Origin: Escherichia phage vB_EcoM-G3G7
Sequence record: MZ234040.1
Length of the DNA: 64,000 nt
Strand: one strand, 5' to 3'
Numbering within the stretch: position 1 is the stretch's first letter; each line of letters begins with the position of its first letter. This document shows positions 59,962 through 62,509 of this stretch, one piece after another. The translations under genes and the position numbers were made by a program. Below the pieces are notes generated by a model. That model searched no databases. It had not been told where the DNA came from and saw only the letters and a program-made list of their open reading frames with translations.

Positions 59962-60270
59962 ATGAAACTGACGACTGAACAAAAAGTAGCAATTCGTGAA
60001 ATTTTGAAAACTAAATTGTCCATGGGTGTTTCAAACGTAGTTTTTGAAAAGTCTGATGGTACTATTCGTGTTATGAAAGGTACTCGCGATGCTGACTTTA
60101 TGCCAACCATGCAAACTGGTAAATTGACTGAATCTACTCGGAAAGAATCTACTGATATGATTCCAGTATTTGATGTTGAACTTGGTGCATGGCGAGGTTT
60201 TTCTATTGACAAATTGATTTCCGTTAATGGTATGAAAGTTGAGCATTTGCTCCAATTTATTGGTAAATAA
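59962..60270 (+). CDS. Hypothetical protein, 102 aa
   Basis: ORF only. Confidence 0.4.
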   Translation: MKLTTEQKVAIREILKTKLSMGVSNVVFEKSDGTIRVMKGTRDADFMPTMQTGKLTESTRKESTDMIPVFDVELGAWRGFSIDKLISVNGMKVEHLLQFIGK

Positions 60271-60271
60271 A

Positions 60272-60296
60272 TGCTTTAAGAATTATTTGTTATTAT
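60272..60296 (+). promoter_or_regulatory. Possible MotA-dependent middle promoter upstream of gene 31
   Basis: MotA box TGCTTTA 60272-60278 about 12 nt upstream of TATTAT. Confidence 0.3.
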
Positions 60297-60326
60297 TAAT
60301 TCATCTGTTAACAAAAAGGAAAAACG

Positions 60327-60662
60327 ATGTCTGAAGTACAACAGCTACCAATTCGTGCTGTCGGTGAATATGTTATTTTAGTTTCTGAACCTGCACAAGC
60401 CGGTGATGAAGAAGTTACAGAATCAGGACTTATTATCGGTAAACGTGTTCAAGGTGAAGTTCCTGAACTGTGTGTAGTTCACTCTGTCGGTCCTGATGTT
60501 CCTGAAGGTTTCTGCGAAGTTGGCGATTTGACTTCTCTTCCAGTTGGTCAAATTCGAAATGTTCCGCATCCTTTTGTAGCTCTGGGTCTTAAGCAGCCAA
60601 AAGAAATTAAACAAAAATTCGTTACCTGTCACTATAAAGCTATTCCGTGTCTTTATAAGTGA
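60327..60662 (+). CDS. 31: Co-chaperonin gp31 (GroES-like)
   Basis: 111 aa as T4 gp31. Confidence 0.85.
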
Positions 60663-60670
60663 TATAAATA
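60663..60670 (+). promoter_or_regulatory. Possible late promoter TATAAATA upstream of rIII
   Basis: Exact TATAAATA about 140 nt upstream of rIII. Confidence 0.35.
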
Positions 60671-60809
60671 ATAATATGAATTGGGTGTCGGAATAATAAG
60701 TTAACCGAACAATTCTATGTGGTAGTCTACAACTGAGAGATCTGTCGAAAGAAGATGAAATTCAGAAGAACGTGACTACCGAGTTTTAATCTCTAACGAG
60801 AATTTTTAA

Positions 60810-61058
60810 ATGATTAAACAATTACAACACGCTCTTGAACTGCAACGAAACGCATGGAATAATGGTCACGAAAACTATGGCGCATCTATTGATGTTGAAG
60901 CCGAAGCTCTTGAAATCCTGCGTTATTTCAAACATCTGAATCCTGCTCAAACTGCATTAGCTGCTGAGCTTCAGGAAAAAGATGAACTTAAATATGCTAA
61001 GCCTCTGGCTTCTGCTGCACGAAAAGCAGTTCGTCACTTTGTGGTAACACTGAAGTAA
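60810..61058 (+). CDS. rIII: rIII lysis-inhibition accessory protein
   Basis: 82 aa as T4 rIII; position next to gene 31. Confidence 0.7.
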   Translation: MIKQLQHALELQRNAWNNGHENYGASIDVEAEALEILRYFKHLNPAQTALAAELQEKDELKYAKPLASAARKAVRHFVVTLK

Positions 61059-61456
61059 TTTATTGGAGAGTCACTGCCTTAGTGTGAAGTTAAAACGAGG
61101 AGCCGTCGAACTGTCTGATTAATGATTTGCGAATCATTATAGTTTTAAGACCCCGGCAGTTTTACGGTGTACCTCTTGAATGTTATTCTTATAGCGGCAA
61201 GTGCATGCTACCCCGAGGTGATGGCCAATCGGGAGTACGCCTCAAGGCCTATATATCCATCAGTATATATCTTATCCTCGAGAAATCGAACCCGGAACCT
61301 TTAAGCTAACGGTGTGCAACAGATAAGAGCTATAAGGTATGATGACGGGTTTATGGTTATCCTGGTCGTTAAATATCAAAAAACCTATGTTCCCCTTGAG
61401 GGCTTGCGCAGGCAATGCCAATAAGTCCTGCATTTTCATTTAAAAGAGAATTTATA

Positions 61457-61633
61457 ATGGCAAAACAAGCTAAAGCAAAGAAAGCAGTTGAAAAGAAAGT
61501 TGGTGATTCTAAACGCGCTGGCTACAAGCGTGGGTCGAACTCTCGTATCAATCAAACTGTTGAGAAGATCATGCGCCGAGCACGTGCGGTTCTTCGAGAT
61601 GATGCTTCTCGTTTTGGTAAGCAGAAAGCATAA
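61457..61633 (+). CDS. Small basic protein, 58 aa (30.9-like position)
   Basis: ATG 61457; Lys/Arg-rich; followed by a terminator; ORF-track alternative start 61415. Confidence 0.45.
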   Translation: MAKQAKAKKAVEKKVGDSKRAGYKRGSNSRINQTVEKIMRRARAVLRDDASRFGKQKA

Positions 61634-61637
61634 GTTG

Positions 61638-61663
61638 AGGACTCCTTCGGGAGTCCTTTTTTA
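61638..61663 (+). terminator. Intrinsic terminator
   Basis: aggactcc-ttcg-ggagtcct followed by TTTTT; identical hairpin to 6871-6896. Confidence 0.7.
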
Positions 61664-61686
61664 TTTTCCAAAGATTGCATAAAGTT

Positions 61687-61716
61687 GTTTACAGTATGGT
61701 TCCTTTGTGATAGTAT
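61687..61716 (+). promoter_or_regulatory. T4-type early promoter
   Basis: GTTTAC 61687-61692, 18-nt spacer, TAGTAT 61711-61716. Confidence 0.5.
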
Positions 61717-61743
61717 TATCTTACACAAACAAAGGAGAATAAA

Positions 61744-62076
61744 ATGAAAACGATTAATCTGAACGCTGCAGTTAAAACTAAATGCTTCAATGGTAAATAT
61801 GATGAAACTATGTGGTTCTTAATGGCAGTTGAAGGTGATATTATTGAAGTAGAAACAACAGAAGGTATGGGAACAGATTTCACCTTTACAATTCAAGTTC
61901 ATAATTTCTTTACTGGTTGGATTTATGAATTGAATACAGTAATCGTTGGAAAAATTGAACAAAATGAATTAGGTGAATGGTATTATGTTACAGCTCGCCA
62001 ACGTGCCGAACGCTTAATTGAGAAGATGAAAAAAGTTGGTAAACTTGACATGCAGCATTGGAAAGTAGTAAAATAA
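61744..62076 (+). CDS. Hypothetical protein, 110 aa
   Basis: ORF with AAGGAGAA upstream. Confidence 0.5.
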   Translation: MKTINLNAAVKTKCFNGKYDETMWFLMAVEGDIIEVETTEGMGTDFTFTIQVHNFFTGWIYELNTVIVGKIEQNELGEWYYVTARQRAERLIEKMKKVGKLDMQHWKVVK

Positions 62077-62078
62077 TT

Positions 62079-62108
62079 GTTTACTTTGGTACAGGATATG
62101 ATATTATA
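62079..62108 (+). promoter_or_regulatory. T4-type early promoter
   Basis: GTTTAC 62079-62084, 18-nt spacer, TATTAT 62103-62108. Confidence 0.55.
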
Positions 62109-62131
62109 TACCTGTACCGCAATTAAACATC

Positions 62132-62509
62132 TTGGAGAATAAAATGAACTACATCAACTTTGAACGTAAATATGTTTCTAATGGTATTGCAGGTTCTATT
62201 GATACTATTTGCCTTTGGAAACATCAAAATGGATCAGTATGCGAAATTGAGCAGTATATGACTCCTAATTACGTTTATATGCGATTTGAAAACGGTATCA
62301 CGGTTTCAATCACGATGGAAGGTTCCAACTTTAAAATCGCTCTGGATGATGATTTCCGTGAACGCGATTTAGGGACTCATCCTTGCTGGAATGGCGTTAA
62401 TCGCAAGCTTTTGGTTAAAACTTGGATTCGTCATATTCTGAGTAACAGAGCTAAACCTGAGCATCTTGAAGCAATCTTTGATGTAGTTCTTAACGAATTT
62501 GATATTTAA
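62132..62509 (+). CDS. Hypothetical protein, 125 aa
   Basis: ORF with GGAGAA upstream. Confidence 0.5.
   Translation: MENKMNYINFERKYVSNGIAGSIDTICLWKHQNGSVCEIEQYMTPNYVYMRFENGITVSITMEGSNFKIALDDDFRERDLGTHPCWNGVNRKLLVKTWIRHILSNRAKPEHLEAIFDVVLNEFDI

What the first reader, a model, noticed from the sequence alone, without database searches (positions are those of the whole stretch)
61059..61456. GC-rich, ORF-poor 0.4-kb stretch between rIII and the next gene: candidate structured RNA or remnant
This interval has no convincing ORF on either strand (the only track ORF, 61127-61309, lacks an RBS and has odd composition). It is markedly more GC-rich than its surroundings (for example CCCCGAGGTGATGGCCAATCGGGAGTACGCCTCAAGGCC) and contains several perfect hairpins (taatgatt-tgcg-aatcatta; cttatc...gataag). 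It could encode a stable non-coding RNA, a replication or packaging signal, or the remnant of a degraded mobile gene.
Basis: seen in the sequence. Interest (0 to 1): 0.4.

Follow-up and report, generated by a model that had tools for sequence, protein, structure and literature searches.

The report
New structured RNA in T4-like phages
The gap after the lysis-inhibition gene rIII holds a 149-base RNA that folds into an intricate, evolutionarily maintained shape; it occurs in about 400 sequenced T4-like phages but not in T4 itself, matches no catalogued RNA family, and its job is unknown.

Summary
The interval has no credible ORF, is more GC-rich than most of its surroundings, and contains the hairpins described. 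The "cttatc…gataag" pair is one helix of a larger RNA.

The core is window 61188-61336 on the + strand. It is a self-contained 149-nt structured RNA:
- a closing stem P1;
- a perfect four-way junction (P1/P2/P3/P4);
- a P2-P3 kissing-loop pseudoknot;
- a three-way subdomain (P4/P5/P6).

Across 29 distinct sequences, 99% of pair cells are standard pairs and 25 of 44 pairs show compensatory changes. G·U versus A·C cells are 64 to 1, which fixes the + strand.

In all 34 loci examined the element lies between rIII and gene 30.9, on the same strand. About 400 phage records from roughly a dozen genera carry it. It is missing from T4, RB51, Mosigvirus and Gelderlandvirus, and from 185,579 bacterial and archaeal species genomes. 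No match was found among Rfam 15 families, tRNA/tmRNA or T4 rnaC/rnaD, and the literature search found nothing.

It has no promoter of its own, so it is transcribed within the rIII-30.9 mRNA. Function is not shown. I favour a cis-acting, ligand- or protein-binding leader domain, over a processed trans-acting RNA. The rest of the gap holds further small structured modules.

The parts
61188..61336 (+). Whole structured RNA element (149 nt), a new family: P1, a four-way junction, a kissing loop and a three-way subdomain.
   Evidence: The covariance model scores 181 bits, with this as the only copy in the 64-kb window. Covariation is shown. T4 lacks 61184-61336/37, which covers the whole element plus 4 nt on its left.
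61188..61195 (+). P1 5' strand CUUAUAGC. It pairs with 61329-61336 (GCUAUAAG).
   Evidence: Perfect 8-bp inverted repeat I4. Four of the 5 modelled P1 pairs show compensatory changes.
61196..61249 (+). P2 arm. P2a is GGC/GCC (61196-98 with 61247-49). The conserved internal loop is AAGUGCAU (61199-61206) opposite CUCAAG (61241-46). P2b is 61207-18 with 61225-40. Loop L2 is 61219-24.
   Evidence: In helix 3, 9 of 13 pairs are compensatory. P2a changes C-G to U-A in Yersinia phage fHe-Yen9-01.
61250..61269 (+). P3 hairpin UAUAUAU / GUAUAUA, with loop CCAUCA (61257-62).
   Evidence: Three of 7 pairs are compensatory and 99.5% of cells are paired.
61220..61224 (+). L2 bases GAUGG, which form a kissing-loop pseudoknot with L3 CCAUC (61257-61261).
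   Evidence: Pair 33:76 is GC in 23 sequences, AU in 2 and UA in 2, with none unpaired. Read from the sequences: PS2 has UAUGG/CCAUA, Cronus AAUGA/UCAUU, and EcS1 and fHe-Yen9-01 CAAUGA/UCAUUG.
61270..61328 (+). P4-P5-P6 three-way subdomain. P4 is UCUUAUC/GAUAAGA (61270-76 with 61322-28). P5 is UCGA-GAAA-UCGA (61278-89). P6 is ACCCG/CGG-GU (61290-94 with 61310-15). Conserved loop L6 is 61295-61309, and the invariant junction GCAACA is 61316-21.
   Evidence: Compensatory pairs: P4 3 of 7, P5 3 of 4, P6 2 of 5. This is the most conserved part. GCTAANGGTGNGCAACAGA is exact in all members.
61337..61388 (+). Module M_b, a probable H-type pseudoknot. It has the leader GUAUGAUG and stem 1 at 61344-49 with 61361-67. 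Loop bases 61355-58 (GGUU) pair with 61382-85 (AACC) after an A-rich linker.
   Evidence: The loop-tail helix changes in step between lineages: GGUU/AACC, GUGAG/CUCAC, GUAGU/ACUAC, GAUGG/CCAUC, UUAGUAGUU/AACUACUAA. It lies upstream or downstream of the core depending on the genus. It is present without the core in T4 and STML-198.
61389..61408 (+). Module M_a, a small hairpin GUUCCCCUUGAGGGCUUGCG. Bases 61394-61407 are also complementary to 61240-47 and 61197-61202 of the core.
   Evidence: It is conserved across genera with variable loops. Complementarity is inverted repeat I5. It occurs without the core in STML-198, so its link to the core is unresolved.
61408..61441 (+). Hairpin GCAGG…CCUGC followed by AUUUUCAUUU, just upstream of the 30.9 ribosome-binding site.
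   Evidence: Read from the sequence. It is conserved in T4. In other genera a longer hairpin takes its place.
61120..61139 (+). AT-rich perfect hairpin followed by UAGUUUU, which may be a weak terminator or 3' stabiliser for rIII.
   Evidence: Inverted repeat I3. The terminator scan did not call it because it has only one G-C pair. It matches only Tequatrovirus-type flanks.
61071..61087 (+). Module M_c, a 4-bp hairpin with the conserved 9-nt loop UGCCUUAGU.
   Evidence: The stem differs between lineages (CAC/GUG, CGC/GCG, UGC/GCA) around a conserved loop. This was read by eye from the sequences and was not tested statistically.
60810..61058 (+). rIII, the upstream cistron of the same transcription unit.
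   Evidence: ORF list and annotation of related records. rIII lies upstream of the element in all loci that extend that far.
61457..61633 (+). Gene 30.9, the downstream cistron. It encodes a conserved 58-aa basic protein of unknown function.
   Evidence: It lies downstream of the element in 34 of 34 loci. The AlphaFold2 model shows a disordered N-terminus and one helix.
60663..60670 (+). TATAAATA, the consensus T4 late-promoter element, upstream of rIII. It is the likely source of late transcripts that run through the element.
   Evidence: The sequence is. Its reading as a late promoter rests on established T4 knowledge and was not tested here.
61637..61658 (+). Strong intrinsic terminator after 30.9, marking the end of the transcription unit.
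   Evidence: Terminator scan: 9 pairs followed by a T-run. This also explains the spurious Atu_C8 and Phe_leader Rfam hits.

Best explanation
**Shown.**
- Window 61188-61336 (+) encodes a self-contained 149-nt RNA domain of a previously uncatalogued family.
- An 8-bp closing stem P1 leads into a perfect four-way junction.
- Arm P2 is long and carries a conserved internal loop. Arm P3 is a short hairpin. The loops of P2 and P3 pair with each other (GAUGG with CCAUC).
- Arm P4 opens into a three-way junction with a GAAA-capped hairpin (P5) and P6. The single-stranded segments there are invariant (GCUAACGGUG.GCAACAG and CCCGGA).

**Inferred from context.**
- The element has no promoter or terminator of its own.
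- It is made as part of the rIII-30.9 mRNA, from the late promoter at 60663-70 and by read-through from upstream, ending at the terminator at 61637-58.
- It is an accessory element. T4 and many relatives have lost it cleanly.

**Inferred mechanism, my best guess.**
- It acts in cis as a compactly folded binding domain, like an aptamer, in the leader of gene 30.9.
- It would bind a conserved partner: a small molecule, a host factor, or a phage protein such as the basic gp30.9 itself.
- Binding would adjust processing, stability or translation of the flanking cistrons, above all 30.9.

I put the identity as a selected, structured + strand RNA at about 0.95. The confidence of 0.4 given below is for the cis-acting binding-domain mechanism.
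For: **Structure.**
- An independent MAFFT alignment with RNAalifold gave 44 pairs, 17 of them compensatory.
- On 29 distinct sequences, 99.0% of cells are paired, 25 of 44 pairs are compensatory, and every helix covaries. Sliding the partners by 1-3 columns drops pairing to 24-42%. None of 500 shuffles reaches the observed values.
- The kissing loop covaries (sequences).
- G·U versus A·C cells are 64 to 1, which fixes the + strand.

**Conservation.** The core is 92-93% identical between this window and Marfa or PEi20. The same comparisons give 71-73% for gene 31 and rIII and 77-81% for 30.9.

**Context.**
- In 34 of 34 loci the element lies between rIII and 30.9 on the same strand.
- The distance from the rIII stop codon is as little as 5 nt, so there is no room for a promoter.
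- No promoter-like or terminator-like site flanks it.

**A discrete unit.**
- T4 lacks 61184-61336/37, that is, the element from P1 to P1 plus 4 nt on its left.
- Neighbouring modules change order around it.

**Features typical of aptamers.** A closing P1 stem, a multi-way junction, a pseudoknot, and invariant junction and loop bases.
Against: - No expression platform was found.
- The distance to the 30.9 start varies from 63 to more than 200 nt, and independent modules fill it.
- The downstream leader is unchanged in T4, which lacks the element. The 30.9 protein region compared (aa 15-58) is identical with and without it.
- Module M_a could pair with the core, but it also exists in phages without the core.
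- Some of the high identity between genera reflects recent exchange of the whole intergenic region: 94-96% over positions 34-396 of the 398-nt query in 170-kb phages (H7, H8).
- The folding energy of the single sequence is ordinary.
- There are no expression, probing or binding data of any kind.
- Alignments A2 and A4 were fitted to the model, which inflates the pair counts somewhat.
Confidence: 0.4

Rival explanations
1. It is a trans-acting stable non-coding RNA. The element would be cut out of the rIII-30.9 transcript by host RNases, as T4 tRNAs and the species 1 and 2 RNAs are cut from their precursor. It would then act on a conserved host or phage target, for example by sequestering a host protein or a defence component.
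For: It is a self-contained unit closed by P1. It is lost as a discrete unit in T4, and its neighbours are shuffled around it. Loop and junction sequences are extremely conserved across roughly a dozen genera whose proteins have diverged. The patchy presence and absence typical of accessory functions fits host-specific or anti-defence roles. The complementary loops could also pair between molecules.
Against: It has no promoter or terminator of its own. No recognisable processing signal is present, such as a tRNA-like end. No complementary target was found in the 64-kb window. Nothing similar exists in E. coli genomes. It is always tied to one locus and one downstream gene.
Confidence: 0.3
2. 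It is a self-cleaving or otherwise catalytic RNA of a new class that processes the rIII-30.9 transcript and so uncouples the two cistrons.
For: It has a compact multi-junction fold with a pseudoknot and invariant internal-loop and junction bases. It sits between two cistrons. Self-cleaving ribozymes are common in phage genomes (general knowledge).
Against: No known ribozyme family matches, even at E up to 10 on 176 nt. No candidate cleavage site can be named. At 149 nt it is larger than most small self-cleavers.
Confidence: 0.08
3. It is a structured cassette kept mainly by exchange between phages, with little or no benefit to the phage. It would spread by recombination within the conserved rIII-30.9 region.
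For: Three alleles occupy the same site: the 149-nt element, a 45-nt mini-hairpin, or nothing. The region is near-identical between different genera (H7, H8). Losses are frequent.
Against: There is one copy per genome, always at one locus and in one orientation. No terminal repeats, target duplications or associated enzyme were seen. Compensatory changes in every helix and invariant loops show long-term purifying selection on the fold.
Confidence: 0.1
4. It is a protein-coding gene or pseudogene remnant, for example ORF 61127-61309, which some GenBank records annotate.
For: Records such as phage a51 and Marfa annotate hypothetical proteins over it.
Against: The ORF has no family match. Stops occur in all six frames in nearly all homologues. 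Substitutions are paired across stems rather than following codon positions. The upstream half of the ORF is not conserved outside Tequatrovirus-type flanks.
Confidence: 0.01
5. It is a DNA-level signal, such as a replication origin, a packaging site or a protein-binding site.
For: It contains inverted repeats and is locally GC-rich.
Against: The 64:1 G·U:A·C asymmetry is not expected for double-stranded DNA. A loop-loop pseudoknot covaries. T4 replicates and packages without the element.
Confidence: 0.02

Closest known systems
Riboswitch aptamers built on a four-way junction with a fold-back pseudoknot (for example SAM-I; recalled from general knowledge)
   Same: A closing P1 helix, a four-way junction, a long P2 arm with an internal loop whose terminal loop makes a covarying tertiary pairing, and invariant junction bases. 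It lies in the leader of a downstream gene.
   Different: It has no sequence or model similarity to any Rfam riboswitch. No expression platform was found. The distance to the start codon is variable and filled with other modules. The ligand is unknown. It is encoded by a virulent phage and sits upstream of a gene of unknown function.
T4 species 1 and species 2 stable RNAs (rnaC, rnaD)
   Same: They are structured RNAs of 120-140 nt and unknown function, encoded by T4-type phages and made from a polycistronic precursor.
   Different: They are not homologous: the model scores under 6 bits on the T4 rnaC/rnaD region. They lie in a different locus, the tRNA cluster. The element has no tRNA-like 3' domain. 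T4 lacks the element.
phi29 pRNA (packaging RNA; comparison of features recalled from general knowledge)
   Same: A phage-encoded structured RNA of about 120-170 nt whose two loops are complementary and covary.
   Different: There is no Rfam match, including to the pRNA model. T4-type packaging needs no RNA, and T4 lacks the element. The genomic context is different. Whether the loop pairing here is within one molecule or between molecules is unknown.
Orphan structured RNA motifs found by comparative genomics in phages and metagenomes (Weinberg and Breaker-type motifs; the 2023 catalogue of candidate viral structured RNAs, PMC10690425)
   Same: It is defined by covariation only, has no known function and is restricted to phages.
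   Different: It is not among the Rfam 15 families. Its sequence strings appear in no held paper. The 2023 catalogue's supplement could not be checked, so prior listing there cannot be excluded.
Autoregulatory mRNA leaders of T4 (gene 32 pseudoknot, gene 43 operator, RegA sites) and bacterial ribosomal-protein leaders (recalled from general knowledge)
   Same: A structured leader upstream of a small, basic, highly conserved protein gene. A pseudoknot module (M_b) lies next to it.
   Different: It is much larger and more elaborate than the known T4 operators. Binding by gp30.9 is untested. T4 keeps 30.9 without the element.

Membership tests
Any Rfam 15 family (4227 covariance models) | A score at or near the family's gathering threshold | tested here: not met
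   No hit inside 61059-61456 at E up to 10 when 1.2 kb was searched. In a 176-nt search, nothing matched within the core, and the only two hits (E = 5 and 9.5) start at its 3' edge (61328, 61335) and run into the flank.
tRNA / tmRNA | Cloverleaf or tmRNA architecture detectable by ARAGORN | tested here: not met
   No genes found in 60000-62500.
T4 rnaC / rnaD stable RNAs | Sequence and structure homology | tested here: not met
   Model R1 with filters off scores at most 5.7 bits on T4 69500-73500.
Riboswitch | A conserved, covarying aptamer fold with a closing P1 stem in the 5' leader of the regulated gene | tested here: met
   for the fold. The element is upstream of 30.9 in 34 of 34 loci.
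Riboswitch | An expression platform: alternative pairing that links the aptamer to a terminator or ribosome-binding site | tested here: inconclusive
   M_a is complementary to P2a/J2, and a hairpin with a U-run precedes the 30.9 RBS. Both exist without the element. Spacing varies from 63 to over 200 nt.
Riboswitch | Specific binding of a small-molecule ligand | not testable with these tools
   Needs in-line probing or isothermal titration calorimetry (ITC).
Self-cleaving ribozyme | Match to a known class, or site-specific self-scission | tested here: not met
   No match to a known class. Self-scission itself cannot be tested here.
Independent sRNA gene | Its own promoter and terminator flanking the RNA | tested here: not met
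   No such sites flank the element. In Karamvirus, Moonvirus and Cronus it starts 5 nt after the rIII stop codon.
Type III toxin-antitoxin antitoxin RNA | Tandem direct repeats upstream of an endoribonuclease toxin gene | tested here: not met
   No tandem repeats. The downstream protein is a 58-aa single-helix protein.
Protein-coding gene | A conserved open frame or a family match | tested here: not met
Mobile element (MITE-like or intron) | Multiple copies or variable insertion sites, or intron core motifs | tested here: not met
   One copy in the window. The locus and orientation are the same in all genomes. No intron family matches.

The most novel reading that the evidence does not exclude
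The element is a new class of phage RNA with a biochemical function of its own. It could be a new riboswitch or ribozyme class, or an RNA that captures a conserved host factor or immune component. In that case T4-like phages would carry an RNA-based accessory function for host takeover or counter-defence. It would have escaped notice because the laboratory reference phage T4 has deleted it.
Probability: 0.3. Interest if true: 0.85.

Novelty: new variant of a known kind. Interest (0 to 1): 0.65.

Why it matters
T4 is the reference for this whole phage group, and T4 lacks the element. This can explain why it has not been noticed, even though it is more conserved than the surrounding genes in about 400 sequenced phages. 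Many of these are Klebsiella, Enterobacter and E. coli phages, including isolates from clinical bacterial strains.

- **Annotation.** Many GenBank records place spurious 'hypothetical protein' ORFs over the RNA. These can now be corrected.
- **Biology.** A 149-nt RNA with a four-way junction, a kissing-loop pseudoknot and invariant junction bases is the kind of fold seen in riboswitches, ribozymes and specific protein-binding RNAs. It is a defined candidate for a new RNA function in virulent phages.
- **Testability.** Natural near-isogenic alleles exist: the 149-nt element, a 45-nt hairpin, or nothing. The function is therefore directly testable by allele swaps with T4.
- **Wider context.** The rIII-30.9 spacer as a whole is a mosaic of shuffled structured RNA modules. 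This points to dense post-transcriptional control around gene 30.9, whose function is unknown.

Tried and rejected
**Searches that found nothing**
- Rfam at permissive thresholds, twice.
- ARAGORN for tRNA and tmRNA.
- E. coli genomes by blastn.
- Two pattern scans of 185,579 species genomes.
- Looser single-motif scans of IMG/VR. These gave mostly chance hits, which the model rejected.
- Iterative BLAST from the most divergent members, EcS1 and Cronus. The family did not grow beyond about 400 records.
- Antisense targets of the invariant loops within the window.
- Seven literature searches, including the literal sequence strings. One preprint could not be opened, and one catalogue's supplement is not held.

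**Homology ruled out**
- T4 rnaC/rnaD.

**Ideas considered and dropped**
- An apparent copy of the element elsewhere in the Kelasse genome turned out to be a different phage with the same genome length.
- I recalled short matches to E. coli 16S rRNA (a 9-mer, GGGAGUACG) and to tmRNA. A 9-mer match between 149 nt and 1.5 kb is expected by chance about 0.8 times (my own estimate), and the motif order differs, so I dropped this.
- I looked for K-turn or loop-E motifs in the P2 internal loop and saw no convincing consensus (by eye).
- A GCAU/GUGC tertiary pairing conflicts with the compensatory change in P6 in Cronus.
- M_a as a dedicated anti-P2a switch is weakened, because M_a occurs without the core.

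**Uninformative**
- The gp30.9 structure is a single helix at pLDDT 68, so no fold search was run. It has no PDB sequence match and no Pfam family.

Full report
**1. Setting**

The window is a T4-type (Tequatrovirus) genome segment. The gene order is cd, 31.2, 31.1, 31, rIII (60810-61058), a 398-nt gap, 30.9 (61457-61633), then 30.8, all on the + strand. The gap is 100% identical to Yersinia phage PYPS2T and Escherichia phage a51.

**2.

- The gap has no credible ORF. The only ORF of 60 aa or more is 61127-61309 (TTG start). It has no Pfam or PHROG match.
- GC is 0.44-0.455 in the gap against 0.31-0.37 in most neighbouring windows. The end of rIII and gene 30.9 are similar to the gap.
- The single sequence folds no better than shuffled controls (z = -0.09). 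On its own the sequence proves nothing. The case rests on comparison with other phages.

**3. A sharply bounded, highly conserved core**

- BLAST against 50,697 phage records shows that the flanks of the gap occur in 944 records, with Escherichia, Klebsiella and Shigella phages the most numerous.
- A core of 135-150 nt is found in 404 records. It is 91-95% identical in Klebsiella, Enterobacter and Edwardsiella phages, about 85% in Serratia phage PS2 and Enterobacter phage KMB17, and 70% in phage EcS1.
- The core is 92-93% identical between this window and Marfa or PEi20. The same comparisons give 71-73% for gene 31 and rIII and 77-81% for 30.9.
- T4 itself and RB51 lack the core. T4 lacks 61184-61336/37, leaving GAATGT|GAATGATG.

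**4. It is a structured RNA read from the + strand**

- A MAFFT alignment of 15 sequences, folded with RNAalifold, gave 44 pairs. Seventeen of them have compensatory changes.
- I built a covariance model from this alignment. It finds one copy in the window at 181 bits. It also recovers all members found by pattern scans of IMG/VR and metagenomes, and rejects the chance pattern matches.
- On the final set of 35 sequences (29 distinct), 99.0% of pair cells are standard pairs. Twenty-five of 44 pairs change on both sides, and each of the seven helices has at least one such pair.
- None of 500 shuffles reaches any observed measure. Sliding the partners by 1-3 columns leaves only 24-42% of cells paired.
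- Caveat: this alignment was fitted to the model, and the sequences are related. The independent result points the same way.
- Stems contain 64 G·U cells and 1 A·C cell, so the folding strand is the + strand, the same strand as the genes.
- All six reading frames carry stops in nearly all members.

**5. Anatomy (window coordinates)**

| Feature | Coordinates | Sequence |
|---|---|---|
| P1 | 61188-95 with 61329-36 | CUUAUAGC / GCUAUAAG |
| P2a | 61196-98 with 61247-49 | GGC / GCC |
| P2 internal loop | 61199-206 opposite 61241-46 | AAGUGCAU / CUCAAG |
| P2b | 61207-18 with 61225-40 | |
| L2 | 61219-24 | |
| P3 | 61250-56 with 61263-69 | |
| L3 | 61257-62 | CCAUCA |
| P4 | 61270-76 with 61322-28 | |
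| P5 | 61278-89 | UCGA-GAAA-UCGA |
| P6 | 61290-94 with 61310-15 | |
| L6 | 61295-309 | |
| Junction J6/4 | 61316-21 | GCAACA (invariant) |

- P1, P2, P3 and P4 meet with no unpaired bases, which makes a perfect four-way junction.
- I noticed that L2 (GAUGG, 61220-24) is complementary to L3 (CCAUC, 61257-61). The pairing covaries. PS2 has UAUGG/CCAUA, Erwinia phage Cronus has AAUGA/UCAUU, and EcS1 and Yersinia phage fHe-Yen9-01 have CAAUGA/UCAUUG.
- Counted on the alignment, the end pair of this helix is GC in 23 sequences, AU in 2 and UA in 2, with none unpaired.
- Whether this kissing contact forms within one molecule is open. That would require P2 to fold back at its internal loop. It could instead form between molecules.
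- The most divergent member, fHe-Yen9-01 (105 bits), adds compensatory changes in P2a (C-G to U-A) and P6 (G-C to A-U).
- Cronus changes A-U to U-A in P6.

**6. Context and transcription**

- In all 34 loci examined the element lies between rIII and 30.9 on their strand.
- The distance from the rIII stop codon ranges from 131 nt down to 5 nt (Karamvirus, Moonvirus, Cronus). A dedicated promoter is therefore excluded in those phages.
- No promoter-like or terminator-like site flanks the element here.
- A consensus late-promoter box, TATAAATA, lies at 60663-70 upstream of rIII. A strong terminator follows 30.9 at 61637-58. I infer that the element is made as part of the rIII-30.9 mRNA.

**7. Distribution**

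- It is present in members of Tequatrovirus, Dhakavirus (JS10), Karamvirus, Jiaodavirus, Marfavirus, Kanagawavirus, Muldoonvirus, Kagamiyamavirus and Tegunavirus. It is also in VR5-type E. coli phages, Citrobacter phage Moon and its relatives, and Erwinia phage Cronus.
- It is absent from T4, RB51, Kelasse, Mosigvirus p000v, Gelderlandvirus STML-198, Dhakavirus IME281 and Jiangsuvirus.
- At the same insertion point, Kelasse, p000v and IME281 carry a 45-nt hairpin that itself covaries. T4 and STML-198 carry nothing there.
- The element is not found in 185,579 bacterial and archaeal species genomes (two scans) or in 5,426 E. coli genomes.
- The 30.9 gene occurs in about 1000 phage records, and the element in about 400 of them. 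The element is therefore accessory and has been lost repeatedly.
- Part of the between-genus identity reflects recent exchange of the whole spacer (H7 and H8).

**8. Comparison with what is known**

- No Rfam 15 family matches, even at E up to 10 on a 176-nt query.
- It is not a tRNA or tmRNA.
- It is not homologous to T4 rnaC or rnaD.
- Seven literature searches, including the literal sequence strings, found no description.
- The supplement of a 2023 catalogue of candidate viral structured RNAs is not held, so prior listing there cannot be excluded.

**9. The rest of the gap**

The spacer is a mosaic of smaller conserved structures whose order differs between genera:

- M_c is a hairpin at 61071-87 with a conserved 9-nt loop.
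- An AT-rich hairpin lies at 61120-39.
- M_b (61337-88) is a probable H-type pseudoknot. Its loop-tail helix changes in step between lineages.
- M_a is a hairpin at 61389-408.
- A hairpin with a U-run lies at 61408-41, before the 30.9 ribosome-binding site.
- M_a is complementary to 61240-47 and 61197-202 of the core. This could in principle open P2a. However, M_a, M_b and M_c also exist in STML-198 without the core, so this is not a dedicated switch.

**10. How it probably works**

What is shown is a selected, compact, + strand RNA fold that is co-transcribed with rIII and 30.9. The mechanism is inference.

- **Cis-acting binding domain in the 30.9 leader (about 0.4).** In favour: fixed position and orientation upstream of one gene, no transcription signals of its own, a closing P1 stem, and invariant junction bases. 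Against: variable spacing, no expression platform, and an unchanged leader and 30.9 protein in T4.
- **Processed trans-acting RNA, possibly directed at a host factor or defence (about 0.3).** This is the main rival. The element's modular, self-contained nature and its accessory distribution favour it.
- **New self-cleaving ribozyme (about 0.08).**
- **Cassette with no benefit to the phage (about 0.1).**
- **Coding remnant (0.01) or DNA signal (0.02).** Both are effectively excluded.

gp30.9 is a conserved basic protein predicted as a disordered N-terminus plus one helix. It is a possible RNA-binding partner, but this is untested.

**11. Verdict**

This is a real and apparently undescribed structured-RNA family. 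Its function is unknown, and it is missing from the reference phage T4. Natural alleles with and without the element make it directly testable. I score interest at 0.65.

Noticed in passing
window 60721-60780: A long hairpin lies just upstream of the rIII start (GGUAGUC-UACAAC-UGA…AUCU-GUCGAAAGA-AGAU…UCA-GAAGAACGU-GACUACC). It has a paralogue between the element and 30.9 in Marfa, PS2 and Karamvirus phages. Three helix segments change in a compensatory way (GGGAGC/GCUCCC, CGA/UCG, AACU/AGUU). There is only one copy in this window and no Rfam match. It is probably a second uncatalogued leader motif.
   Followed up: partly
window 61337-61388: Module M_b is a probable H-type pseudoknot with an A-rich linker. 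It is also present in T4. In other genera it lies upstream rather than downstream of the main element.
   Followed up: partly
L108 1227-1271 (Kelasse); L112 1457-1502 (p000v); L115 about 1605-1650 (IME281): At the site where this window has the 149-nt element, these phages carry a 45-nt hairpin (CUAUCAUG…CAGC-AAAAGGUUA-GCUG…CAUGGUAG). It covaries between them (CAGA/UCUG, CACG/CGUG). It could be a reduced derivative of the element or an alternative cassette.
   Followed up: partly
window 61240-61247 with 61394-61401, and 61197-61202 with 61402-61407: Fourteen contiguous bases of module M_a are complementary to both strands of the P2a/internal-loop region of the element. This is a possible alternative pairing. 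Both partners are near-palindromes, and M_a exists without the element, so its significance is unclear.
   Followed up: partly
L110 1463-1566 (+) and 1614-1726 (-), Klebsiella phage vB_KpnM_17-11: The element appears split in this record, with its 3' subdomain on the opposite strand. This is either a local inversion or an assembly error.
   Followed up: no
L002 1569-1866 (phage a51); L003 1883-2090 (Marfa): Public records annotate two or three short 'hypothetical protein' ORFs across the RNA element. These are very likely spurious.
   Followed up: yes
window 61457-61633 (gene 30.9): gp30.9 is a small, very basic protein restricted to phages. Fourteen positions are invariant across 25 aligned homologues. 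It is predicted as a disordered Lys/Arg-rich N-terminus plus a single helix (residues 29-53). An older UniProt entry gives a 97-aa '11.1 kDa protein' that would start inside the gap.
   Followed up: partly
window 61589-61672: The best Rfam hit in the neighbourhood (Atu_C8, 31 bits, below threshold) is simply the intrinsic terminator after 30.9.
   Followed up: yes
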